Of a stretch of DNA of 32,000 nucleotides, positions 599-31,223 are shown in pieces. The notes under the pieces were generated by a model. The model ran no database searches. It was not told the DNA's origin and saw only the letters and a list, made by a program, of their open reading frames with translations. The stretch is from Dickeya dadantii NCPPB 898 (GTDB taxonomy: Bacteria > Pseudomonadota > Gammaproteobacteria > Enterobacterales > Enterobacteriaceae). The DNA lies in contig NZ_CM001976.1 in the NCBI RefSeq assembly GCF_000406145.1, forward strand, positions 43,186 to 75,185. Direction: 5' to 3'. How positions within the stretch are numbered: position 1 is the stretch's first letter; every line of letters begins with the position of its first letter. Both the position numbers and the translations under genes were made by a program.

Positions 599-902
599 CG
601 GGAATAATTGGTCTGACGGGAAATATGAATATTCTTTATGTAATAACCAGAGTGATGAATTAAACGGAAAAAATAGTCAAAATAACAAGCAGGAAAATAG
701 CAATAATCCGGAAAACCAGTTCGGCTGGTATTTAAAAGAAAAGGGTATCTAAAAACGTTTCTGTCTTGTTTTTCCGTGCGATTCACTTATTAGCCGAAAA
801 GATAAGCTGATTGTTTATAAGGGCGTTAAACTGCCGGCGTAAGGTTTTTTCAGGAAAAGGGCGAATGGCATAAGAAAAAACCGGAATACGCTGATGGCAC
901 CT

Positions 903-929
903 GAACTTTCGAACATATCATCGGTCTGT
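903..929 (+). promoter_or_regulatory. Candidate sigma-E (RpoE) promoter of eptB
   Basis: GAACTT (903..908), a 16-nt spacer, then TCTGT (925..929). This closely resembles E. coli rpoH P3 (GAACTT-N16-TCTGA, including the CGG immediately before TCTG). It lies 37 nt upstream of the ATG at 966. Confidence 0.45.
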
Positions 930-965
930 TTACAGGATATTTTTACCTCTGGAGCACGGTCTGTA

Positions 966-2648
966 ATGAAATCCCTGCTGGCGTTGTCACAATCTACATT
1001 GTCCTGGTTGCTGGCAATCTATATTGGCTTTTTTTTGAATCTGCCGGTTTTTTACCGGCGTGTAGATGCATTCCCGTTTTTTACTGAGAATCCGGTCGCC
1101 AAATATATTCCCCTGCTGGTGGAATCAATGGCTTGCATTCTGTTTACCTTTTTCCTGATGCGGCTTTTGTCGCTCGGCGGTCGCCGTTTTTTTCGTGTTA
1201 TGGCCTCATTGCTGGTATTAATTTCAGTGGCCGCCAGTTACTACATGACTTTTTTTAATGTCGTGATTGGCTATGGCATTATCGCCGCGGTAATGACCAC
1301 GGATATTGATTTATCCAAAGAAGTGGTCGGCCTGTTTTTTGTGCTGTGGGTAGTGGCGCTTAGTCTTCCGCCAGTGTTTCTCATTTGGAAAAACCGCCTG
1401 CAGCAAACGCTGATTGAACAATTGCGTACTTCCGGACGTCGGCGTATCGCGCTGTTGGGGCTGGTGGCGTCTGCTGCACTGGTATGGTTGCCGCTACGCT
1501 ATCTGGCTCAGATAAATACTTCGGCGGAGAAACTGTCTAATCAGGATTTGCCGAGTTACGGCGGGGTGGTGGCGCATTCTTATTTACCGGCCAACTGGTT
1601 ATCGGCATTCGGTTTGTTTGCCTATGCCCGTTATGATGAAAATCAGGATGACGACGAGCTGATTGACCCCAGCAAGCAGTTTACCTATCAGGCGCCGCCG
1701 GGCATTGACGACACTTACGTCGTCTTCATCATCGGCGAAACCACCCGCTGGGACCATATGGGGCTGCTGGGCTACGAGCGTGATACCACGCCGCAACTGG
1801 CGAAGGAAAAGAATTTGCTGGCGTTTCGCGGCCATTCCTGCGACACCTCCACCAAACTGTCGATGCGTTGCATGTTCGTGCGGGAGGGCGGCACCTCCGA
1901 TAATCCGCAACGAACGCTGCGGGAAAAAAATATCTTTGCCGTCATGAAGTCGCTGGGGTTTTCGTCTGAACTGTTCGCGATGCAGAGCGAGGTCTGGTTC
2001 TATAACAACATTCAGGCCGACAATTACGCCTTTCGTGAAATGATTGCCTCGGAAAAGCGCAACGAGGGCAAAGCGGTGGACGACATGCTGCTGGTCGACG
2101 AAATGTCGCAGTCGCTGATGCGTTACCCTAACGGCAAGCACCTGGTGGTGCTGCACACCAAAGGCTCCCATTACCTGTATTCGATGCGCTATCCGCGCAG
2201 CTATGCCCGTTATCAGCCGGAGTGTATGGGCGTGGACGCTTCCTGTTCCCGTGAACAGTTGATCAATGCCTTCGATAACAGCGTGTTGTATACCGATGCC
2301 GTCATCAAGCGAGTCATTGACCAACTGCGCGACAAGAAGGCGCTGCTGGTGTATTCCTCCGATCACGGTGAATCGATCGACGACAACTACCATTTGCATG
2401 GCACGCCGCGCCAGATGGCGCCGCCGGAGCAGTTCCGTTCGCCGATTATGCTGTGGGCTTCGGACAAATATCTGGCACAGCCGCGTAATCAACAGGCGTT
2501 TGAGCAACTGCGGGCGCAGCAGCAGCAAGGAAAGGTGCTGCGTCATGAGGAGATTTTCGACTCCATGCTGGGGTGTCTGGGATATACCTCGCCGGATGGC
2601 GGCATTCAGGAGAAAAATAACTGGTGCAATATGCCGGGGCGCGGATAA
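966..2648 (+). CDS. eptB: Kdo2-lipid A phosphoethanolamine transferase EptB (sulfatase-family inner-membrane enzyme)
   Basis: The 560-aa product from ATG 966 (MKSLLALSQSTLSWLLAIYIGFF...) is colinear with E. coli EptB as I recall it (GYGIIA.VMTTDIDLSKEVVGL, YVVFIIGETTRWDHMG, HTKGSH, DHGES, GCLGYTSPDGGI). The 894 start in the ORF track is an upstream extension that would contain the promoter. eptB is also adjacent to proK in E. coli. Confidence 0.9.
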   Translation: MKSLLALSQSTLSWLLAIYIGFFLNLPVFYRRVDAFPFFTENPVAKYIPLLVESMACILFTFFLMRLLSLGGRRFFRVMASLLVLISVAASYYMTFFNVVIGYGIIAAVMTTDIDLSKEVVGLFFVLWVVALSLPPVFLIWKNRLQQTLIEQLRTSGRRRIALLGLVASAALVWLPLRYLAQINTSAEKLSNQDLPSYGGVVAHSYLPANWLSAFGLFAYARYDENQDDDELIDPSKQFTYQAPPGIDDTYVVFIIGETTRWDHMGLLGYERDTTPQLAKEKNLLAFRGHSCDTSTKLSMRCMFVREGGTSDNPQRTLREKNIFAVMKSLGFSSELFAMQSEVWFYNNIQADNYAFREMIASEKRNEGKAVDDMLLVDEMSQSLMRYPNGKHLVVLHTKGSHYLYSMRYPRSYARYQPECMGVDASCSREQLINAFDNSVLYTDAVIKRVIDQLRDKKALLVYSSDHGESIDDNYHLHGTPRQMAPPEQFRSPIMLWASDKYLAQPRNQQAFEQLRAQQQQGKVLRHEEIFDSMLGCLGYTSPDGGIQEKNNWCNMPGRG

Positions 2649-2730
2649 CGCCGTTGCTTGCTAGCGGGCTGGGACGGTGCGCATTCAGACGGCAATAGCG
2701 GTGTTTTTCCAACCCGTCGGACACTTTGTC

Positions 2731-2748
2731 GCCAACTTGTTGGCTTTT
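2731..2748 (+). terminator. Possible Rho-independent terminator after eptB
   Basis: Short hairpin gccaac/gttggc (2731..2744) followed by TTTT. Confidence 0.4.
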
Positions 2749-2760
2749 ATAAAAAAGGGA

Positions 2761-2789
2761 TTGACGCTATGTTAGGGGCGCAGTAATAT
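2761..2789 (+). promoter_or_regulatory. Sigma-70 promoter of proK (stable-RNA type)
   Basis: TTGACG (2761..2766), a 17-nt spacer, then TAATAT (2784..2789). An A-rich tract lies upstream and a GC-rich discriminator GCGCCCCGC lies just before the tRNA 5' end, as in stringently controlled tRNA promoters. Confidence 0.6.
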
Positions 2790-2801
2790 GCGCCCCGCAT
2801 T

Positions 2802-2878
<77 letters not shown>

Positions 2879-5421: not shown

Positions 5422-5670
5422 GTCTTACTCCTGAATGGCGCGTTGACAGTCGGGGTCGCCTCTGGGTGCGATGGTGTCATGCTAGCGAGGGAGCATTAAG
5501 AGAGACTTAAGACGGTTGAAAAATCACCTTAATATCGGTGTGCTATTTTAATTTTTTGATAAATAATGAAATTTATAATTACCGTTTGTAGCGATGGCAT
5601 GTATCGGCGTCGGAATCCGGTATCGGTATAGTAAGTCGCCTGATAAATCACGAAGGGACGGAGAAACGGC

Positions 5671-6849
5671 ATGTCGACATCGCGCCGCGCGCATCAACTG
5701 GCAATTTTGGTCGTGATGATCAGCGCCTCGCTGGTGGGGTTGGTTCAGGGGTATTCCATCCCGCTGGTGACGCTGAAACTGACCGCGCTGGGCTACGGCT
5801 CCGCGCTGACCGGCATGATGTCCGCGTTGCCGGCGATTGGCGTATTCGTCTCTTCTTGGGTAGCGGCGCCTGTGGCGATGCGCTTGCCGGTGGGCCGCCT
5901 GCTGGCGCTGTCGACATGGGGCATGGGCGTCAGCCTGACGCTGTCGTTTTACCTCGACAATGTGGCGCTGCTGGCAGCGCCGCGTTTTCTGATGGGATTT
6001 TGCTGCGGGCTGATTATCGTCATCGGCGAGTCCTGGGTCAGCGGCCACACCGCCGAGCATCGCCGGGGCGTGCTGGTGGGGTTGTACGCTACCGCGTTCA
6101 CCGGCCTGCAACTGCTGGGGCCGCTGCTGATTTCCCTCACCGGGCTGGACGATCCGACCGGGCTGTTGCTGATTTTGGCGCTGCATGGCGTATGCCTGCT
6201 GATGGTGCCCGGCTCGTCGTTTTCCGGACTGGCGCTGAGCGCCCATCGGCAACATAACCTGTTTTCGCTGTTGCTGGCCGCGCCGGCGTTGGCGGCGGCG
6301 GTGTTTGCGTTCGCTTTTTTCGACGGCGCGGTGCTGTCGATGCTGCCGCTGTACGGCATGGCGCACGGCTACGAGGAACAGCTGGCGGTGCTGCTGGTGA
6401 CGGTGTTGTTTATCGGCGATGCGCTGTTGCAGGTGCCGCTGGGTTGGGTTTCCGACAAGCTGGGCACCGTGCGGGTGCATCTGGCCTGCGGAGGGCTGTT
6501 CGTGCTGATGCTGGCCGGCCTGCCGTTCAGCTACGGCACCGGCTGGGTGTGGGCGAATGTCTTTTTGCTGGGCGCGGTGGCGGGCAGTATTTACACCCTG
6601 GCGCTGGTGCGCGCGGGCAAGCAGTTCAGCGGCGTCAATCTGGTGGCGATCAACGCCTTGTTCGGCGTTTTATGGGGCGTCGGCAGTTTCAGCGGTCCAC
6701 TGGTGAGCGGTTCGTTGATGCAGTGGTACGGGCGTGACGGGTTAATCGCCGTTTTGGGGTTGCTGGGGCTGCTGTTTCTGGCGGCCAACGCGCTTGCGGC
6801 AACGCAGCGGAATGCTGCCGGGCAGACGGACCCGGAACTGGCGGAATAG
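5671..6849 (+). CDS. MFS transporter
   Basis: 392 aa with about 12 hydrophobic segments. GGAGA RBS before ATG 5671. Divergent from the 3310..5421 operon. Confidence 0.85.
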   Translation: MSTSRRAHQLAILVVMISASLVGLVQGYSIPLVTLKLTALGYGSALTGMMSALPAIGVFVSSWVAAPVAMRLPVGRLLALSTWGMGVSLTLSFYLDNVALLAAPRFLMGFCCGLIIVIGESWVSGHTAEHRRGVLVGLYATAFTGLQLLGPLLISLTGLDDPTGLLLILALHGVCLLMVPGSSFSGLALSAHRQHNLFSLLLAAPALAAAVFAFAFFDGAVLSMLPLYGMAHGYEEQLAVLLVTVLFIGDALLQVPLGWVSDKLGTVRVHLACGGLFVLMLAGLPFSYGTGWVWANVFLLGAVAGSIYTLALVRAGKQFSGVNLVAINALFGVLWGVGSFSGPLVSGSLMQWYGRDGLIAVLGLLGLLFLAANALAATQRNAAGQTDPELAE

Positions 6850-20174: not shown

Positions 20175-20352
20175 ATCCGGTGGAAGACAGGGTGGGGAAA
20201 AGATGGATAAATAATGTTCATATTTTTTGAAAGATATCTGCAAATAAACCCGATTTTAACGTCGGGTTAACAGGTCTATTATCACTTCCATCGAAAGCGA
20301 AGACGCTTTCAGAAAAGACAAACAACCGAATTCAACGTGAAGGATATTGACC

Positions 20353-20619
20353 ATGAAAGCTATCAAAAACTTTGTTGCAGTTATCGCCCTGGCTACTGTT
20401 TCTTTCGGCACTTTCGCGGCTACCACGTCCAACGCGACTGAAGTACAGCAATCCGCCAGCCTGTCCGCCGGCACCGTTAGCGCAACTGCCAATACGCTGG
20501 ACGGTTTGCAGGCCAGCCTGTCTGAAAAAGCGAGTGCTGCCGGCGCCAAATCGTTCCGCATCATCTCCGCTACCGGCAACGAAAATCAGATGCGCGGCGT
20601 GGCTGAACTGTATAACTGA
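20353..20619 (+). CDS. DUF1471 (YdgH/BhsA/McbA-like) small periplasmic stress protein, paralog 1
   Basis: 88 aa. Signal peptide MKAIKNFVAVIALATVSFGTFA. C-terminal ...GAKSFRIISATG...GVAELYN is typical of the family. GAAGGA RBS. Confidence 0.85.
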   Translation: MKAIKNFVAVIALATVSFGTFAATTSNATEVQQSASLSAGTVSATANTLDGLQASLSEKASAAGAKSFRIISATGNENQMRGVAELYN

Positions 20620-20667
20620 TAATCAGTTTCTGGTTATCATCAGCAACAATTATCCATACGAGCAATG

Positions 20668-20694
20668 GCCGCCTTCGGGCGGCTTTGTTGTTTT
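20668..20694 (+). terminator. Rho-independent terminator
   Basis: gccgcc-ttcg-ggcggc followed by TTTGTTGTTTT. Abuts the stop codon of the convergent ROK gene. Confidence 0.8.
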
Positions 20695-21797
20695 CAGTAC
20701 TGATTAAGCGCCAGCGCGGCGGCGCCGAAGGCGGCGCTGTTTTGTGTCGGTAGCGTTGAGAGGCGCACCGGCGGTAGCGTCAGCGGCGCGTCGTCGTCCG
20801 GCGCGGGCGTCTGAGCCATAACGGCGGCCTGTAACCCGGCCATGAAGGGAGCGGGCAGCGTGCCGCCGAGGTAGAGACAAGGCGGGTCGAGCAGTGCGGT
20901 GACGCTATAGAGCAGCCCATACAGTTCCCCCGCCGCGCGTTGGACCCAACTTTTTCCGGCCGGCGAGGCCGCCAGCGCCTGCCAGTCCGCATCGGCGGTA
21001 TTGGAAGGTAACGGCTCGCCCGCCGCCAGCAGGCAGTCATGCAGATCGTCAAACGACGGGCGTGACTGCGCCCGGGTGCGCAGCGCGCCAATCTCCCCCG
21101 CGTTGCCTTGCTTGCCCCGATGAAGTTCGCCATTCAGGATCAACGCGCCGCCAATCCCCTTGCCGATATACAGGTAGAAAAAGCTGTCGTCCGGGGCGGC
21201 GGAACCGAAATGCAACTCGCCGATGGCGGCGCAGTTGGCGTCGTTTTCCACCAGCACCGGGCAGCCCAGCCGGTCGCTCAACTGCCGGGCGATATCTACC
21301 CCGCGCCAGGCCGCCAGACCGGGGGCGATCCACACCGGCATGGCGCCGCCGTCAAATCGGGCGGGCAGCGCCAGGCTGACGGCCAACAGCCGATCGCGGG
21401 CCTGCGGCTGAGCGTCGAGCAGGGTGCGGATAGCATCGGCCAGCGTATTCGCCACTGAGTCAACGATCCGGAAATCGCCGCGCAGGGTGGTTTCCGCCAC
21501 GCACTGCCCGGCATAGTCCATCAGGATCAGGCAAATCAGGTCGTATTCCGCGTACACCCCCAGTACATAGCCCGCGTGCGCCGCCGGTCGCAGGTTGATT
21601 TGCGGCGGGCCACGCCGCCCCTGCGCCCGGTCGCTCTCTTCCAGCAGGCCGAGGTTGAGCATGTCCCGCGTCATCATGCTGACGGCGGCGGTAGTCAGGC
21701 CGCTGGCGGCGGCCAGCGCGCTGCGCGACAGGCTGCCCGAACGGCGCAGCAACCCCAGCAGTTTGCGGTGGGTGGCGGTGAGTTCTCGCTTTTCCAT
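20694..21797 (-). CDS. ROK-family transcriptional regulator (NagC/Mlc-like)
   Basis: Start at MEKRELTATHRKLLGLLRRSGSLSRSALAAASGLTTAAVSMMTRDM (wHTH). ROK sugar-kinase-like fold (ENDANCAAIGE, GIGGALILNGELHRGKQGNAGEIG). Confidence 0.85.
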   Translation of the reverse strand: MEKRELTATHRKLLGLLRRSGSLSRSALAAASGLTTAAVSMMTRDMLNLGLLEESDRAQGRRGPPQINLRPAAHAGYVLGVYAEYDLICLILMDYAGQCVAETTLRGDFRIVDSVANTLADAIRTLLDAQPQARDRLLAVSLALPARFDGGAMPVWIAPGLAAWRGVDIARQLSDRLGCPVLVENDANCAAIGELHFGSAAPDDSFFYLYIGKGIGGALILNGELHRGKQGNAGEIGALRTRAQSRPSFDDLHDCLLAAGEPLPSNTADADWQALAASPAGKSWVQRAAGELYGLLYSVTALLDPPCLYLGGTLPAPFMAGLQAAVMAQTPAPDDDAPLTLPPVRLSTLPTQNSAAFGAAALALNQY

Positions 21798-25283: not shown

Positions 25284-26390
25284 ATGATGGCGGAGATTGT
25301 ACTTGATGGCGTAACCAAAGCCTGGGGCGATACGCCGGTGCTGCACCCGGTTAATCTGACGCTGGCTGACGGCGAGTTTGTGGCGATCCTCGGGCCGTCC
25401 GGCTGCGGCAAATCCACCACGCTGTTTCTGCTGGCCGGACTGTATGCGCCGACGCAAGGGCAGATTCTGTTCGACGGCCAGCGGGTGAACGGCGTGGACG
25501 CGCGCGACCGCAACGTTGGCGTGGTGTTCCAGTCTTACGCGCTGTACCCGCATCTGAGCGTGTACGACAACATTGCGTTTCCGCTGCGTTTCAAACCCGC
25601 GGAACGTGCCGAGCGCGACCAGCGGGTGCGGGAAGCGGCGGCGCTGGTACAGGTGACGGAACTGCTGGAGCGCAAGCCGTCGGCGCTGTCCGGCGGACAG
25701 CAGCAGCGGGTAGCGCTGGCGCGGGCGTTGGTTAAGCGGCCGTCGCTGTTATTGCTGGACGAGCCGTTGTCCAACCTCGACGCCACCTTGCGTATGACGA
25801 TGCGCACCGAACTGAAAGCGATTCACGCCCGTTCGCGCGCCACCACGCTGATGGTGACGCACGATCAACTGGAAGCCATGACGCTCGCCAGCCGCATTAT
25901 CTGTATGAATCAGGGGCGGGTGGAGCAGATCGGCACCCCGCAACAGCTCTATCGCCAGCCCGCTAATACCTTTGTCGCCGGCTTTATCGGCTCGCCGCCG
26001 ATCTGCCTGCTGCCGGGGCAGGCCAGCGGCCGTCGGTTGACGGTGGGCGAAATAAGCTGGGGGTTGTCATCGACGTATCACGGCGCGCTGACGCTCGGTA
26101 TCCGGCCGGAAGACGTCACCCTGACGCCGCTGGGCGCCGGCCCGCTGTCCGGGCGCATCGAACACATTGAGCCGATGGGGCGGGAGGTCTTGTACCGCCT
26201 GCACACGTCGCTTGGGCCGTTGCAGGCGCTGGCGGCCGGTTCGACGGCGCAGTATGACGCGGGGATGCTCGTCGGGGTGTCGCCGTCGGTGGATGCTCTG
26301 CTGCTGTTTGACGCCGACGGCAATCGTCTGCCCGATGTCGGCGTGGTACTGCCCGCCGATGTCGTTTCCGCCTGCCGGACGGCAGGTTAA
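25284..26390 (+). CDS. ABC transporter ATP-binding protein (MalK/UgpC-like)
   Basis: Walker A GPSGCGKST. Q-loop. Signature LSGGQQQRVALARAL. Walker B LLLLDEPLS. H-loop VTHDQ. C-terminal regulatory (TOBE-like) domain. Confidence 0.92.
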   Translation: MMAEIVLDGVTKAWGDTPVLHPVNLTLADGEFVAILGPSGCGKSTTLFLLAGLYAPTQGQILFDGQRVNGVDARDRNVGVVFQSYALYPHLSVYDNIAFPLRFKPAERAERDQRVREAAALVQVTELLERKPSALSGGQQQRVALARALVKRPSLLLLDEPLSNLDATLRMTMRTELKAIHARSRATTLMVTHDQLEAMTLASRIICMNQGRVEQIGTPQQLYRQPANTFVAGFIGSPPICLLPGQASGRRLTVGEISWGLSSTYHGALTLGIRPEDVTLTPLGAGPLSGRIEHIEPMGREVLYRLHTSLGPLQALAAGSTAQYDAGMLVGVSPSVDALLLFDADGNRLPDVGVVLPADVVSACRTAG

Positions 26391-27293: not shown

Positions 27294-27319
27294 TCACCCG
27301 CGGCGAGGTCTGCGGGTGA
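27294..27319 (+). terminator. Hairpin after the EEP gene (weak terminator candidate)
   Basis: tcacccgc-N10-gcgggtga. A T-rich tract follows only after a gap. Confidence 0.3.
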
Positions 27320-27478
27320 TAGTCGATTTATGGTTATTTTTCATTCATTTTTTTTGAAAGATATCTGCAAATAAACCCGGTTTTAACGTCGGGTTAACAG
27401 GTCTATTATCACTTCCATCGAAAGCGAAGACGCTTTCAGTAAAGAAATCAACCGAATTCAACGTGAAGGATATTGACC

Positions 27479-27745
27479 ATGAAAGCTATCAAAAACTTTG
27501 TTGCAGTTATCGCCCTGGCTACCGTTTCTTTCGGCACCTTTGCTGCGACCACGTCCACTGCGACTGAAGTACAGCAATCCGCCAGCCTGTCCGTCGGCAC
27601 CGTCAGCGCGACTGCCGCTACGCTGGATGGCCTGCAAGCCAGCCTGTCTGAAAAAGCGAACGCCGCCGGCGCCAAATCGTTCCGCATCATCTCCGCCACC
27701 TCCGGCGAAAACCAGATGCACGGCGTGGCTGAACTGTACAACTAA
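27479..27745 (+). CDS. DUF1471 (YdgH/BhsA/McbA-like) small periplasmic stress protein, paralog 2
   Basis: 88 aa, with 7 aa differences from paralog 1. Same RBS and leader. Confidence 0.85.
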   Translation: MKAIKNFVAVIALATVSFGTFAATTSTATEVQQSASLSVGTVSATAATLDGLQASLSEKANAAGAKSFRIISATSGENQMHGVAELYN

Positions 27746-27805
27746 TCCCATCGATATAAAAAATAACGCCGATATTCGCTAACACCAGTATCACGTGCAG
27801 CAATG

Positions 27806-27833
27806 GCCGCCTTCGGGCGGCTTTGTTGTTTTT
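27806..27833 (+). terminator. Rho-independent terminator (same hairpin as at 20668)
   Basis: gccgcc-ttcg-ggcggc followed by TTTGTTGTTTTT. Confidence 0.8.
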
Positions 27834-27869
27834 AGAGAAGAGCAATGAGGAGAAATGGTCGTGGATTTT

Positions 27870-28502
27870 TTATGCCGACAGCCATCCTCTCAGGATGTTG
27901 ACCAGCACTGGTGCGTAAGGCGTCAGCCTGCCGTTTTGCGGGGAACTGAAATCGTTAATGACGGCTGTTAACAGATCGTCGTCTTCCAACCCTTCGTCAG
28001 GATCGATACCGTTAGTCCATAACAGGCTATCGATAAACTGTTTGCGTATCTCAATTAGCTTTTTGTTATGGGTTTCATTGTCGCCAAGGTTAAGTACCCG
28101 AATAGCATCCTGCGCGCGTGCTGTCGTGCCGCTGACGCGTCCGCTAATCATAAATTGCAATTCGGTTTCGCATTCCGCCATTAGTGGAGTAAGGGAAAAC
28201 GGTTGTGAACCGTGGGCGGCGTCGCACTGATTTGGCGTAGTACAACTGGCGGCGATATTGGTGAAATCGAGGCTACGGTGAGGCGCTAATTTTCTTGCCT
28301 GCACGTGCTCATTCATGGTGTCGCTGTTATCACCGCTAATCGGTTTGCAGCAGTAGGCGCACAGGTAAAACTGCTCTTTGGCGCAGGCATCACGGATGTC
28401 CTGCCGCTCGGTTTCTGTCAAATCGTCGTACCGGCCTGTGGGATTGGCGCGTTTCCAGACTGTCAGGCTGGCAGGTTCCGTACCTTTAGTGATTTTTCTC
28501 AC
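27870..28502 (-). CDS. ptuB: HNH-type nuclease of the TIGR02646 / PtuB-like family (Septu-like partner protein)
   Basis: 210 aa. Motif LCAYCCKPI...NEHVQARKLAPH...ASCTTPNQCDAAHG (Cys pairs plus His residues of an HNH/zinc-finger core). 17-nt overlap with the upstream ATPase ORF. Low GC. Confidence 0.55.
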   Translation of the reverse strand: MRKITKGTEPASLTVWKRANPTGRYDDLTETERQDIRDACAKEQFYLCAYCCKPISGDNSDTMNEHVQARKLAPHRSLDFTNIAASCTTPNQCDAAHGSQPFSLTPLMAECETELQFMISGRVSGTTARAQDAIRVLNLGDNETHNKKLIEIRKQFIDSLLWTNGIDPDEGLEDDDLLTAVINDFSSPQNGRLTPYAPVLVNILRGWLSA

Positions 28503-29920
28503 CGCGTAACTCCTGTTTGCGCAGTAATAGGCGGGCTTTGGTCAATTCCAGATTGGTGGCGGGCAACTCCGCGGTCAGTTCATCCAATAACGCTTTGGCT
28601 GGCGTTAATTGCTGGCGCTGGATCATGTCCAGCAGGTCACTAAATTTTTCCGCGATTCGCGCGTTACGGATATGGGTATCCATCACCTCCAGCAACACGC
28701 TATTGGCATCCTGACCGTATTGGGATGGCACCACGGTCAGTTCGCCGTTATCCAGTGAATACACCAACACATCTTTGTAATCGCTGATCACCAGCGGCGA
28801 GTGGGTGGTCAGAATAAACTGGCAGTGGGGGAAGGTGGTGGTCAGCCGTTCGATAATGCTGCGCTGCCACGACGGATGCAGGTGCATATCCACTTCATCG
28901 ATCAGCACAATGCCTTGCCCGTGCAACGGGTTGTCCAGCGTCGGATTCATAATCGCCAGACGACGCGCGATATCACCCACCAGCGCCATCAGCGATTTTT
29001 CGCCCTGCGACAGTTGCAGCACGTTAAGCGGCTTTCCCTCTTTATTGATGGACATATGCAGGCGGGGTTTGCGGCGTACTCGCAGATTGGAAAAACCCGG
29101 CATAAAGCGATAAATAGCCTGTCGAACGGCATCAAGCTGTGGGTCTTTATTCGATTTTAATGTTGCCAACCCATTCTTTATTTTTGTTAATTGTTCTTCA
29201 ACATTGATATTTTTATTTTTGTTGTTTGGGCTGAGAATTTGAGTAATAAACTGATCGGGATCGTTTTCGATCATATTAGAAAGGATGTCTGCCAAGGATG
29301 ACTCAGTTTTCGTTTTCAATATCTTCCTGCTCACGAAACCATTCGAAAAAACGCCGGAAATCCACCCCCTGATTGAGCGCGTTGTCATACCCATCTACCT
29401 GTTGAAAATGATGTTTATTTTTTATTTTCAGCGGAATATCCAGCACGCTGCGTTCGACTGGATAAAAGGCGATTAGCGGTAAGCTGCTTTGCTCGTTTTG
29501 CGTTAATGCGGAGCGATAATGATCCGCCAGCGCGGAAACCGCATTCAACTGGCTGGTGTGCTGCCCTTTTTTACCGCTGCGGGTTTTTGCCAGCGTCCAA
29601 TGGTATTCAGCGTCGTTGTCGGCAGCATGGCCTGAGAGCGGAGGAGTATCTTGTGCCATGACCTCAATCGCGGCGGAAGTATGGCCATTGGTAATGGTGC
29701 CTTCGTTGATGCCGCTACCGCTGCCTTTTTCACTGCGCACCCGTGCTACCAGCCAGCTGAGCGAGGTTGCCAGCGCTTGCAAAATGGAGGTTTTCCCGGC
29801 GCCATTATTGCCGACCAGCACCGTTACGTTGGAAGGATAATCAGCCGTTGGCGCGATGAGGGCATCAAGAGAAGTAAAGCGCCCGACGTTGTGCAACCTG
29901 AATTGCTTTATTTTCATCAT
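28486..29920 (-). pseudogene. ptuA: PtuA-like ABC/SMC-type ATPase with a broken reading frame: N-terminal fragment 29303..29920, C-terminal fragment 28486..29394
   Basis: The N-terminal fragment carries Walker A GNNGAGKTS (start MMKIKQFRLHNVG with an AAGGAA RBS). The C-terminal fragment carries LSQGEKS, Walker B VLIDEVDMHLHP and TTHSPLV. The two frames overlap over 92 nt and differ by +1. Confidence 0.6.
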
Positions 29921-30014
29921 CCGTTCCTTAGGTAAACGTTGAGTCGCCTGCGCAGTGTACAAATCTTCTGGCAATGATACATCCATTTCCGGGATTCATT
30001 GCGGGGATCACGTC

Positions 30015-31223
30015 TTACCCCAGCGCCTGTGCGCACGCCCAGGCGGAGCTCCAGGCCCACTGGAAGTTGTAACCGCCGAGCCAGCCGGTGACGTCCACCA
30101 CTTCGCCAATGAAGTACAGGCCCGGCACGTTGTTGGCTTCCATCGTTTTTGACGACAACTCGCGGGTGTCAACGCCGCCGAGCGTCACTTCCGCCGTGCG
30201 GTAGCCTTCAGTGCCGTTAGGCTGGACCCGCCACTGTTGCAGCGTGGTTTCCACCTCGGCCTGTTGCGGCTTGTTGAGCTGTTTCAGCGTGACGTCCGGT
30301 AATTGCCCCAGCGCCTGCAGGCTTTCCACCAGCCGTTTCGGCAGCCATTGCGCCAGCGTGTTTTTCAGGCTTTGATTCGGGTGTGCCAGACGTTCATTGT
30401 TAAGGCATTCGGTCAGATCAAGGTTGGGCAACAGGTTGATGGTGACGAATTCCCCCGGTTGCCAGTAGCTGGACAGCTGTAGGACCGCCGGGCCGGACAG
30501 GCCGCGGTGGGTAAACAGAATATTTTCGCGGAAGGTGGTGCCGTTTTCGGCCGTAACCACCGCCGGTACCGACACGCCGGAGAGCGTCTGCAACTGTTCC
30601 AGCAGCGGTTTGTGCAGGGTAAACGGCACCAGCGCGGCGCGGGTCGGTAACACCTTGAGGCCAAACTGCGCCGCCAGTTGATAGCCGAACGGGGTGGCGC
30701 CCAGCCCCGGCATCGACAGCCCGCCGGTGGCGATCACCACCGCCGGCGCCTGCATCACCCCGGTGTTGAGCGTCACCTGAAACTGCTCGCTTTTTTCCAC
30801 CGACAGCACCTCGCTGCGCAGGCGCAGCGTCACCTTGCCGGTTTCACACTCTTTCATCAGCATATCGACGATCTGCTGCGCGGAATCGTCGCAGAACAGC
30901 TGGCCGAGGGTTTTTTCGTGGTACGCGATGCCATGACGGTTGACCAGATCGATGAAATCCCACTGGGTGTAGCGGGCGAGGGCGGATTTACAGAAGTGCG
31001 GGTTGTTCGACAGATAGGCCGCGGGTTCGGCGTACAGATTCGTGAAGTTGCAGCGCCCGCCGCCGGACATCAGAATCTTGCGGCCCGGTTTTTTGCCGTT
31101 GTCCACCAGCAGCGCCCGCAGCCCTTTCTGGCCTGCCTGCGCCGCACAGAACAGCCCGGCCGCGCCCGCGCCAATGATGATTACGTCAAACTGTTCCACA
31201 TTACACTCCCGTTGTTCCGCCAT
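30015..31223 (-). CDS. yhiN: NAD(P)/FAD-dependent oxidoreductase, YhiN (HI0933/BaiN-like) family
   Basis: FDVIIIGAGAAGLFCAAQAGQKG dinucleotide-binding motif. KILMSGGGRCNFTN. C-terminal GGYNFQWAWSSG-like end. Adjacent to and divergent from pitA, as in E. coli. The true start may be GTG 31199, which has GGGAG 6 nt upstream. Confidence 0.88.
   Translation of the reverse strand: MAEQRECNVEQFDVIIIGAGAAGLFCAAQAGQKGLRALLVDNGKKPGRKILMSGGGRCNFTNLYAEPAAYLSNNPHFCKSALARYTQWDFIDLVNRHGIAYHEKTLGQLFCDDSAQQIVDMLMKECETGKVTLRLRSEVLSVEKSEQFQVTLNTGVMQAPAVVIATGGLSMPGLGATPFGYQLAAQFGLKVLPTRAALVPFTLHKPLLEQLQTLSGVSVPAVVTAENGTTFRENILFTHRGLSGPAVLQLSSYWQPGEFVTINLLPNLDLTECLNNERLAHPNQSLKNTLAQWLPKRLVESLQALGQLPDVTLKQLNKPQQAEVETTLQQWRVQPNGTEGYRTAEVTLGGVDTRELSSKTMEANNVPGLYFIGEVVDVTGWLGGYNFQWAWSSAWACAQALG

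What the first reader, a model, noticed from the sequence alone, without database searches (positions are those of the whole stretch)
27870..29920. Low-GC ATPase + HNH (Septu/PtuAB-like) defence cassette wedged in front of yhiN-pitA
Two overlapping minus-strand genes make up the cassette. The first is an ABC/SMC-type ATPase (Walker A GNNGAGKTS, signature-like LSQGEKS, Walker B VLIDEVDMHLHP, H-loop TTHSP). The second, overlapping it by 17 nt (28486..28502), is a 210-aa Cys/His-rich protein with an HNH-like core (LCAYCC...NEHVQARKLAPH...CTTPNQCDAAHG) of the TIGR02646/PtuB type. This ATPase + HNH pairing is the architecture of the Septu anti-phage system. The roughly 2.1-kb cassette is visibly more AT-rich than its flanks. 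By my count 29161..29220 has 14 G/C in 60 nt, against 38 in 60 at 26161..26220. It has no integrase or transposase. It sits exactly between a Rho-independent terminator (27806..27833) and the stop codon of the core gene yhiN. It therefore looks like a compact horizontally acquired defence islet rather than part of the surrounding metabolic loci.
Basis: partly seen in the sequence, partly recalled or inferred. Interest (0 to 1): 0.7.

Follow-up and report, generated by a model that had tools for sequence, protein, structure and literature searches.

The report
Frameshifted Septu (PtuAB) defence islet
This is a small two-gene anti-phage module of the known Septu type (an ATPase plus an HNH nuclease), present in only some Dickeya strains just after the core gene yhiN, and here its ATPase gene is broken by one extra base, so it is an ordinary and probably dead member of a known family.

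Summary
On the minus strand, 27870..29920 encodes a PtuA-type ABC ATPase and a PtuB-type HNH nuclease whose genes overlap by 17 nt. PADLOC Septu profiles match at E 1e-63 and 1e-103 (PtuA halves) and 5e-101 (PtuB). A predicted PtuB structure matches only solved PtuB chains.

The window is Dickeya dadantii-like. The same cassette sits at the same yhiN | DUF1471 junction in D. zeae, D. chrysanthemi, D. dianthicola and some D. fangzhongdai. It also follows yhiN in Pectobacterium versatile. It is absent (clean empty site) in another D. dadantii and in other D. fangzhongdai genomes. One genome carries a different 7-kb cargo there. It is a strain-variable islet of 2183 bp with no mobility genes or flanking repeats, GC 0.51 against 0.60.

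New points:
- ptuA is split by one extra A in GAAAAC|GAAAAC|TGA (29317..29303). All five intact orthologues lack it, so the system is probably inactive.
- The frameshift lies at the edge of a hypervariable, recombining PtuA segment (29113..29309), which accounts for the most AT-rich stretch.
- The terminator belongs to the neighbouring gene.

The closest studied relative is an E. coli Septu (about 60% identity) that cleaves tRNA-Tyr.

Verdict: new member of a known kind, low interest.

The parts
27832..30014 (-). Segment present here but absent from the empty yhiN|DUF1471 junction of another D. dadantii genome (2183 bp replacing 54 nt)
   Evidence: Alignment of the window with L087. Comparison of L089 (empty) with L092 (occupied) shows that about 30 nt after the yhiN stop and about 35 nt after the ptuB stop are the old spacer. 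No flanking direct or inverted repeats.
29921..30014 (-). Non-coding leader between the yhiN stop and the ptuA start. It is 77-91% identical among the five Dickeya cassettes compared. Shine-Dalgarno AAGGAA at 29924..29929.
   Evidence: No sigma-70 consensus was found on this strand, so the promoter is not identified.
29303..29920 (-). ptuA N-terminal fragment (205 codons plus TGA at 29303..29305). Walker A GNNGAGKT at 29789..29812, Lys43.
   Evidence: PADLOC PDLC00271 E 4e-63 and Pfam AAA_23 E 2e-19. 90% identical to residues 1-205 of D. chrysanthemi PtuA.
29302..29317 (-). Frameshift site GAAAAC GAAAAC TGA G. There is one extra A relative to orthologues, and deleting one A restores a 477-aa PtuA.
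   Evidence: ptuA is the only gene out of 14 neighbours that is split into two frames.
28486..29304 (-). ptuA C-terminal part in the -3 frame (272 codons, stop TAA 28486..28488). Signature LSQGEK 28996..29013, Walker B VLIDEVD 28888..28908, H-loop TTHSP 28795..28809.
   Evidence: PADLOC PDLC00286 E 2e-103 and Pfam AAA_21 E 3e-17. Deposited at NCBI as WP_201765876.1 'AAA family ATPase [Dickeya dadantii]'.
29113..29309 (-). Hypervariable, AT-rich (GC 0.36) segment of ptuA (PtuA residues about 204-262), a helical insertion between the two ATPase lobes. Alleles are exchanged between lineages.
   Evidence: two allele classes, incongruent with the flanks. (least conserved and length-variable across 112 family members). 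with PMC12819146 (aligns with the 'helical flap' 261-274 of retron Ec78 PtuA).
27870..28502 (-). ptuB, an HNH nuclease (210 aa, GTG start, SD AGGAG at 28510..28514). HNH/zinc core at 28212..28361 (Cys48, Cys51, His66, Asn82, Cys87, Cys93, His97).
   Evidence: PADLOC PDLC00344 E 5e-101 over the full length. These residues are invariant in 33 homologues. AlphaFold model pLDDT 84, and the Foldseek top 10 are all PtuB chains.
27805..27832 (+). Flank, not part of the cassette: intrinsic terminator of the + strand DUF1471 gene
   Evidence: Present unchanged in empty sites.
30015..31223 (-). Flank: yhiN (HI0933-like flavoprotein), 97-98% identical to D. dadantii YhiN
27473..27745 (+). Flank: YdgH/BhsA-like (DUF1471) small protein gene
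   Evidence: PF07338, E 2e-16

Best explanation
The region is a stand-alone Septu anti-phage module (ptuA ABC-type ATPase, ptuB HNH nuclease, translationally coupled) in a Dickeya dadantii-like chromosome. It lies in the short spacer between the yhiN stop codon and the terminator of a DUF1471 gene. That junction is variable in Dickeya. Some strains carry this cassette, some carry nothing and one carries a different cargo. The cassette is an accessory islet, probably gained or lost by homologous recombination through the conserved flanks rather than by its own mobility genes (inferred). By analogy with studied relatives, an intact version would form a PtuA-PtuB complex. On phage infection that complex would use ATPase-controlled HNH nuclease activity to stop phage growth, most likely by cutting host tRNA-Tyr in its variable loop as the about 60%-identical E. 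coli Septu does, or by nicking DNA as seen in vitro (inferred from the literature, not tested here). In this genome ptuA has one extra A at 29307..29310. This ends translation after 205 codons, before the signature, Walker B and H-loop motifs. The ATPase cannot be made as one chain and the system is most likely inactive. The lesion is recent: no other stop or frameshift occurs in the remaining 272 ptuA codons or in ptuB. It lies exactly where a swapped hypervariable segment begins, so it may be a scar of that exchange (inferred). I put the Septu identity at about 0.95 and the real inactivation at about 0.65-0.7.
For: Family: PADLOC PtuA and PtuB profiles; Pfam AAA_23/AAA_21/AAA_15; PDB sequence hits to retron Ec83 and Ec78 PtuA and to Septu PtuA 8ee4; PtuB fold hits to PtuB chains only at E<=1e-3; catalytic and zinc residues invariant. 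Closest studied system: an E. coli chromosomal pair, 62% and 59% identical, has K43, D316, H75 and N91 at exactly the positions mutated in Septu EcB88 (PMC13096335). Islet: occupied junctions in L082, L086, L092, L093-96 and L098; empty junctions in L087-L090; other cargo in L091. Composition. PtuB is 71% identical in a Nitrosomonas type I R-M island. Frameshift. The C-fragment is deposited separately at NCBI. The frameshift coincides with the point where identity to the 99-100% identical contig L081 collapses.
Against: Only one assembly carries this allele, so a single-base assembly error in an A-run cannot be excluded. No promoter was identified. Conserved parts of the cassette diverge about as much as the core flanks. 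This fits long residence with repeated loss as well as repeated transfer, so 'horizontally acquired' is shown for the family but not dated for this genome. No functional data exist for any Dickeya Septu in the literature searched.
Confidence: 0.65

Rival explanations
1. The same Septu islet, but the frameshift is a sequencing or assembly error, so the strain has an intact, working PtuAB.
For: The extra base is in a homopolymer (AAAA). The source is a single 4.83-Mb contig, known from one assembly only. The rest of ptuA and ptuB shows no decay.
Against: The 13 other neighbouring genes tested are each matched in a single frame without breaks. A run of four is short for a systematic homopolymer error. 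The lesion sits exactly at the junction of the swapped variable segment, although the gene contains many other A/T runs.
Confidence: 0.28
2. A remnant of a type I-A retron (Ec78/Ec83-like) that lost its reverse transcriptase and msr-msd RNA.
For: The PtuA sequence is closer to retron Ec83 and Ec78 PtuA (E 2.5e-65 and 5e-51) than to the solved Septu PtuA 8ee4 (1.6e-29). NCBI names some orthologues 'retron system putative HNH endonuclease'. It keeps an insertion at the position of the retron 'helical flap'.
Against: There is no room for an RT: 94 nt lie between yhiN and ptuA, and the terminator follows ptuB. None of the orthologous loci has an RT gene. There is no Rfam hit. PtuA lacks the retron N-terminal extension, since query residue 30 aligns with Ec78 residue 86 (PMC12819146). 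It scores below the NF041760 and NF041761 cut-offs. The top PADLOC hits are Septu models, not ATPase_I-A or HNH_I-A.
Confidence: 0.03
3. The two ptuA ORFs are expressed on purpose, either by programmed +1 frameshifting or as a split two-chain ATPase, and the system works as encoded.
For: Both halves are intact reading frames and overlap.
Against: All five full-length orthologues, and the L081 contig across this site, are single ORFs without the extra base. There is no Shine-Dalgarno or start codon serving the C-fragment near the break; the first in-frame ATG in the homologous part is at 29274 with no SD. AAC-UGA is not a known +1 slippery context (established knowledge).
Confidence: 0.03

Closest known systems
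Septu of an E. coli clinical strain (Septu EcB88; PMC13096335) and its chromosomal relatives in 276 of 5426 complete E. coli genomes
   Same: Two overlapping genes, ptuA then ptuB, with no RT. About 62% (PtuA) and 59% (PtuB) identity end to end to the E. coli pair in L097, which has K43, D316, H75 and N91 at the positions mutated in EcB88. The equivalent residues are all present here (K43, D341, H66, N82). It is also a bare two-gene insert between core genes (smrB and a fimbrial operon).
   Different: Different chromosomal site and host genus. The middle helical segment is 25 residues longer here and unrelated in sequence. ptuA is frameshifted here. I could not confirm that L097 is EcB88 itself, because the paper gives no accession.
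Solved E. coli Septu PtuAB complex (PDB 8ee4/8ee7/8eea; Li et al. 2024, cited in PMC13096335 and PMC12819146)
   Same: Stand-alone ATPase plus HNH pair. The predicted PtuB fold matches 8eea_G (E 6e-7, TM 0.59). PtuA matches at E 1.6e-29 over the C-lobe.
   Different: Much more distant in sequence than the retron-linked PtuAs. According to PMC12819146, that PtuA lacks the helical-flap insertion and has Leu at the signature-motif position that is Gln361 in Ec78. This PtuA has an insertion at the flap position and Glu307 (LSQGEK).
Retron type I-A effectors PtuA/PtuB (Ec78 = Retron-Eco7, Ec83; PDB 9kjx, 9nnh, 9e8z)
   Same: Best PDB sequence matches for PtuA (E 2.5e-65 to 5e-51). Same motif set. 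An insertion at the flap position. The PtuB fold matches.
   Different: No RT, no msr-msd RNA and no N-terminal extension of PtuA. Below NCBIfam equivalog cut-offs.

Membership tests
Septu (PtuAB) | PtuA: ABC/SMC-like ATPase with Walker A, signature motif, Walker B and H-loop | tested here: met
   All motifs are present. PADLOC PtuA profiles score E 4e-63 (N half) and 2e-103 (C half) and together cover the whole 421-position profile. Pfam AAA_23/AAA_21/AAA_15.
Septu (PtuAB) | PtuA encoded as one intact reading frame | tested here: not met
   +1 frameshift and TGA at 29303..29305. Orthologues are 477-488 aa single ORFs. This affects function here, not family origin.
Septu (PtuAB) | PtuB: HNH (beta-beta-alpha-metal) nuclease with H-N-H and zinc-binding cysteines | tested here: met
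   PADLOC PtuB PDLC00344 E 5e-101 over 1-209 of 210 residues. H66, N82, H97, C48, C51, C87 and C93 are invariant in 33 homologues. The model (pLDDT 84) matches ten PtuB chains at E<=1e-3, followed by Cas9 HNH domains. There is no Pfam hit, and TIGR02646 scores 46.6 against a cut-off of 52.15.
Septu (PtuAB) | ptuA immediately followed by ptuB on the same strand, with no further system genes | tested here: met
   17-nt overlap. The flanks are yhiN and a DUF1471 gene.
Septu (PtuAB) | Protects against phage; ATPase and HNH activities both required | not testable with these tools
   Shown for E. coli Septu EcB88 (PMC13096335) and for Ec78 PtuAB (PMC12819146), not for any Dickeya copy.
Retron type I-A (Ec78/Ec83) | Reverse transcriptase gene and msr-msd RNA next to ptuAB | tested here: not met
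   No ORF space on either side. There is no RT in six orthologous loci. Rfam finds nothing in 27300..30300 at E<=1.
Retron type I-A (Ec78/Ec83) | PtuA N-terminal extension that contacts RT and ncRNA | tested here: not met
   PtuA starts about 56 residues 'late' relative to Ec78 and Ec83 PtuA. The NF041760 match starts at profile position 40 and scores 135 + 228 bits against a cut-off of 500.
OLD / Gabija GajA-type ATPase-nucleases | TOPRIM nuclease domain fused to the ABC ATPase | tested here: not met
   No TOPRIM match in Pfam. An OLD-family PDB hit scores only E 3e-6 over the ATPase part.

The most novel reading that the evidence does not exclude
The AT-rich middle segment of stand-alone PtuA (residues about 204-262) sits at the position of the 'helical flap' that retron PtuAs use to hold msDNA and to oligomerise. 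It may be a swappable specificity or sensor module. Dickeya lineages may exchange it by short-patch recombination independently of the rest of the gene, and the frameshift here may be the scar of an out-of-register exchange. In addition, the 3' end of yhiN may be a dedicated cargo hotspot across Pectobacteriaceae.
Probability: 0.3. Interest if true: 0.5.

Novelty: new member of a known kind. Interest (0 to 1): 0.27.

Why it matters
Practically, it shows that this D. dadantii-like strain probably lacks a working Septu system while many other soft-rot Dickeya and Pectobacterium strains carry one at the same place. This is relevant when choosing phages for biocontrol of these plant pathogens. Conceptually it adds little. 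Septu is well described, and close E. coli relatives have been studied genetically and structurally. The modest added value lies in three points. First, there is a clean natural series at one chromosomal junction: empty, occupied, alternative cargo and freshly broken. Second, the cassette's variation concentrates in one recombining segment of PtuA, which would be a sensible target for specificity-swap experiments. Third, defence genes can be lost by a single-base lesion that automated defence-system finders may report as a complete system or miss, depending on how pseudogenes are handled.

Tried and rejected
1. Exact-protein look-ups of the window's PtuB, YhiN, and the deposited C-fragments P0241 and P0361 found no contig. 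The source assembly could not be inspected, and no independent copy of the frameshift allele was found.

2. Two metagenome scans found nothing. One targeted the frameshift junction, allowing AAA or AAAA. The other targeted the window's variable-segment allele.

3. The genome-contig scan with YhiN returned only species at 81% identity or less, none with the cassette. Dickeya loci had to be reached through the search for homologous proteins and the look-up of encoding contigs.

4. Deletion-scar idea. The L089 empty spacer seemed to align with the last 17 nt of ptuB. Comparison with the same-species occupied locus L092 showed that stretch is homologous to the spacer just after yhiN, so I dropped the idea. 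A 13-nt match between the L087 spacer and ptuB (E 0.04) is treated as chance.

5. The 98%-identical metagenome contig L081 has a yhiN only about 55% identical in protein and of different GC (0.66). I first read this as a recombination breakpoint. It is more likely a chimeric assembly joined in the conserved yhiN 3' end, so it was not used as evidence for transfer.

6. Programmed frameshifting, phase variation (the run is only 4 A) and a retron remnant were considered and rejected (see rivals).

7. A sigma-70 promoter for ptuA was not found by the consensus scan.

8. A literature search for Septu in Dickeya gave only noise.
Full report
**What is in the sequence**

On the minus strand between the stop codon of yhiN (30015..30017) and a hairpin at 27805..27832 there are three ORFs.
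- 29303..29986 is the N-terminal half of an ABC-type ATPase.
- 28486..29394 is its C-terminal half, in another frame.
- 27870..28502 is a 210-aa Cys/His-rich protein with a GTG start.

- Walker A GNNGAGKT, with Lys43
- signature LSQGEK
- Walker B VLIDEVD, with Asp341 and Glu342
- H-loop TTHSP

The 17-nt overlap of the ATPase stop with the start of the second gene (28486..28502) is correct. Orthologues begin MMKIKQF or MKIKQF, so the real ptuA start is ATG 29920 or 29917, behind AAGGAA.

**Family assignment**

Profile searches all point to Septu.
- PADLOC gives PtuA models as the best hits for both ATPase halves. PDLC00271 scores E 4e-63 on the N half and 3e-101 on the C half, and PDLC00286 scores 2e-103 on the C half. 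Together they cover the profile from position 1 to 420.
- PADLOC PtuB model PDLC00344 matches the third ORF at E 5e-101 over residues 1-209.
- Pfam sees AAA_23, AAA_21 and AAA_15 in the ATPase and nothing in the nuclease.
- NCBIfam finds the retron Ec78 PtuA and PtuB equivalogs and TIGR02646, all below their cut-offs.

In 33 homologues, His66, Asn82, His97 and Cys48, Cys51, Cys87 and Cys93 of the nuclease are invariant. An AlphaFold model built on that alignment has mean pLDDT 84 and pTM 0.82. With Foldseek it matches ten solved PtuB chains at E<=1e-3. These include E. coli Septu 8eea_G and the retron I-A, Ec78 and Ec83 PtuBs. The next matches are Cas9 HNH domains.

The ATPase, read with the frame repaired, matches solved retron Ec83 PtuA (E 2.5e-65), Ec78 PtuA (5e-51) and Septu PtuA 8ee4 (1.6e-29).

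The system is nevertheless stand-alone.
- Only 94 nt separate yhiN from ptuA.
- Rfam finds no RNA family.
- None of the orthologous loci holds a reverse transcriptase.
- PtuA lacks the roughly 56-residue N-terminal extension by which retron PtuA binds RT and ncRNA (PMC12819146).

**The frameshift**

Alignment with orthologues shows a single extra base in GAAAAC GAAAAC TGA G (29317..29302). Removing one A gives a 477-aa protein that is colinear, codon by codon, with intact PtuA of four species:
- D. zeae, 478 aa
- D. dianthicola, 480 aa
- D. fangzhongdai, 487 aa
- D. chrysanthemi, 488 aa

This rests. As encoded, translation stops after 205 codons, upstream of the signature, Walker B and H-loop motifs.

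Fourteen D. chrysanthemi proteins from this neighbourhood were aligned to the window. Only PtuA is split into two frames. NCBI holds the C-terminal ORF as a separate protein, WP_201765876.1, 'AAA family ATPase [Dickeya dadantii]', on a 4,829,443-bp contig. No second, independent copy of this allele could be found, so an assembly error cannot be excluded. The remaining 272 ptuA codons and ptuB carry no other lesion. If the frameshift is real, it is recent.

**Where the cassette sits, and in whom**

YhiN of the window is 97-98% identical to D. dadantii YhiN.

The same order of genes, pitA - yhiN - ptuA - ptuB - DUF1471 - EEP - ABC transporter, is found in:
- D. zeae (L082)
- D. chrysanthemi (L086)
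- D. dianthicola (L093-L096, plus 20 similar places)
- one D. fangzhongdai-type genome (L092)

Other genomes differ at the junction.
- A D. dadantii genome (L087, L088) has yhiN followed directly by the DUF1471 gene.
- Two genomes with the same YhiN protein as L092 (L089, L090) do too.
- One further genome (L091) has a different 7-kb metabolic gene set at that junction.
- In Pectobacterium versatile the cassette also follows yhiN, but the other flank differs.

Relative to the D. dadantii empty site, the window has 2183 bp (27832..30014) in place of 54 nt. Comparing empty L089 with occupied L092, the flanks are 97-100% identical. The first ~30 nt after the yhiN stop and ~35 nt after the ptuB stop are recognisable as the two halves of the old spacer.

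No target-site duplication, terminal repeat, integrase, transposase or adjacent tRNA is present. The hairpin plus T-run at 27805..27832 is a + strand terminator for the DUF1471 gene and is present in empty sites.

**Composition and history**

The insert has GC 0.506, against 0.603 +/- 0.04 for other windows of equal size. The ptu reading frames have GC3 of 0.57-0.59 (0.67 in the conserved C-terminal part of ptuA), against 0.76-0.79 in the flanking genes.

Family members occur in distant classes. PtuB of a Nitrosomonas is 71% identical and lies inside a type I restriction-modification operon. Relatives sit on Enterobacter and Paraburkholderia plasmids. So the module is horizontally mobile.

Within Dickeya, however, the conserved parts of the cassette differ between species about as much as yhiN and EEP do (0.85-0.96 against 0.86-0.95). 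The cassette has therefore been at this junction for a long time, with later losses or recombinational exchange. It is not a recent arrival in this strain.

**A hypervariable, recombining segment**

The most AT-rich stretch (29113..29309, GC 0.36) is one segment of ptuA, residues about 204-262. It occurs in two allele classes.
- D. zeae and D. dianthicola share one (0.91 identity).
- D. chrysanthemi and D. fangzhongdai share the other (0.93 identity).
- Identity between the classes is about 0.4.

In the N-terminal part of the same gene, D. fangzhongdai groups with D. dianthicola instead (0.96). The window carries a divergent version of the first class (0.67).

The metagenome contig L081 is 99-100% identical to the window on both sides of this segment but carries a second-class allele. 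Across 112 family members, this segment is the least conserved and the only strongly length-variable part of the protein besides a loop at residues 91-105.

In the alignment to Ec78 PtuA, the segment covers the 'helical flap' (residues 261-274). That helix-loop-helix insertion encircles msDNA and mediates oligomerisation in the retron system. It is reported as deleted in the solved stand-alone Septu PtuA (PMC12819146).

The frameshift lies on the last bases shared with L081: identity ends after GAAAACGAAAAC, and the TGA is the first triplet of the divergent part. An out-of-register junction of an allele exchange is therefore a plausible origin. This is inference only.

**How it most likely works**

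This part rests on the literature, not on tests done here.
- In E. coli Septu EcB88, defence needs PtuA Walker A and B (K43, D316) and PtuB H-N-H (H75, N91). Infection by T-even phages triggers cleavage of tRNA-Tyr in the variable loop, and phages escape by over-producing tRNA-Tyr (PMC13096335).
- An E. coli chromosomal pair found here carries exactly those residues at those numbers. It is 62% (PtuA) and 59% (PtuB) identical to the Dickeya proteins. Relatives of this pair occur in 276 of 5426 complete E. coli genomes, where sampled between smrB and a fimbrial operon.
- For retron-linked PtuAB, the PtuA-PtuB complex is the toxic unit, and neither protein alone arrests growth (PMC12819146). This fits the survival of an intact ptuB next to a broken ptuA.

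An intact Dickeya cassette is thus expected to act as an abortive-infection-type ATPase-gated nuclease. The copy in this window most likely does nothing.

**Verdict**

- ptuA is broken.
- The cassette is an old resident of a variable junction, not a recent arrival.
- The AT-richness is concentrated in one variable segment.
- The terminator belongs to the neighbouring gene.

It is a new, probably defective, member of a known and well-studied kind. Interest is low to modest.

Noticed in passing
L091 9231..16232 (Dickeya fangzhongdai-type genome GCA_003049805.1): At the same yhiN|DUF1471 junction this genome carries a different, roughly 7-kb cargo instead of ptuAB: a PrpR-like sigma-54 activator, an amidohydrolase, a Na/sulfate-citrate family symporter, an RraA-like protein and a 2-hydroxyacid dehydrogenase. 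The junction therefore behaves as a general variable spot.
   Followed up: partly
L081 1..1454 (JGI metagenome 3300014786 contig): This contig is 98-100% identical to the window from the last ~50 nt of yhiN through ptuAB, DUF1471 and EEP. Its yhiN body is only about 55% identical in protein and has GC 0.66. It also holds two N-runs. It is probably a chimeric assembly joined in the conserved yhiN 3' end.
   Followed up: partly
window 20217..20697 and 27341..27830: There are two paralogous YdgH/BhsA-like (DUF1471) genes, 20353..20619 and 27473..27745. Their surroundings are about 85% identical at the DNA level, and they bracket the ROK / sugar ABC transporter / EEP block. Such a repeat pair could support rearrangements.
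   Followed up: no
window 601..2878: This is the only other region as GC-poor as the cassette (0.503 over 2.18 kb). It holds an EptA/EptB-like phosphoethanolamine transferase gene (894..2648) directly followed by tRNA-Pro(CGG) at 2802..2878.
   Followed up: no
L097 5576..7577 (E. coli OkiPb01713 chromosome): A homologous bare ptuA-ptuB pair (452 and 219 aa) lies between smrB and a yfc-type fimbrial operon in this genome. DNA matches of about 70% identity occur in 276 of 5426 complete E. coli genomes, always chromosomal and one per genome.
   Followed up: partly
L099 2132..12532 (Nitrosomonas sp. Is37): A PtuAB pair lies nested inside a type I restriction-modification operon (HsdM, HsdS, PtuA, PtuB, unknown, RhuM-like, HsdR). 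Its PtuB is 71% identical to the Dickeya one, an example of the module riding in a classical defence island.
   Followed up: no
window 5548..6849: Two long overlapping ORFs lie on opposite strands, 5548..6480 (-) and 5671..6849 (+). The minus-strand one has no Pfam match at E<=1e-5, and the plus-strand one was not examined.
   Followed up: no
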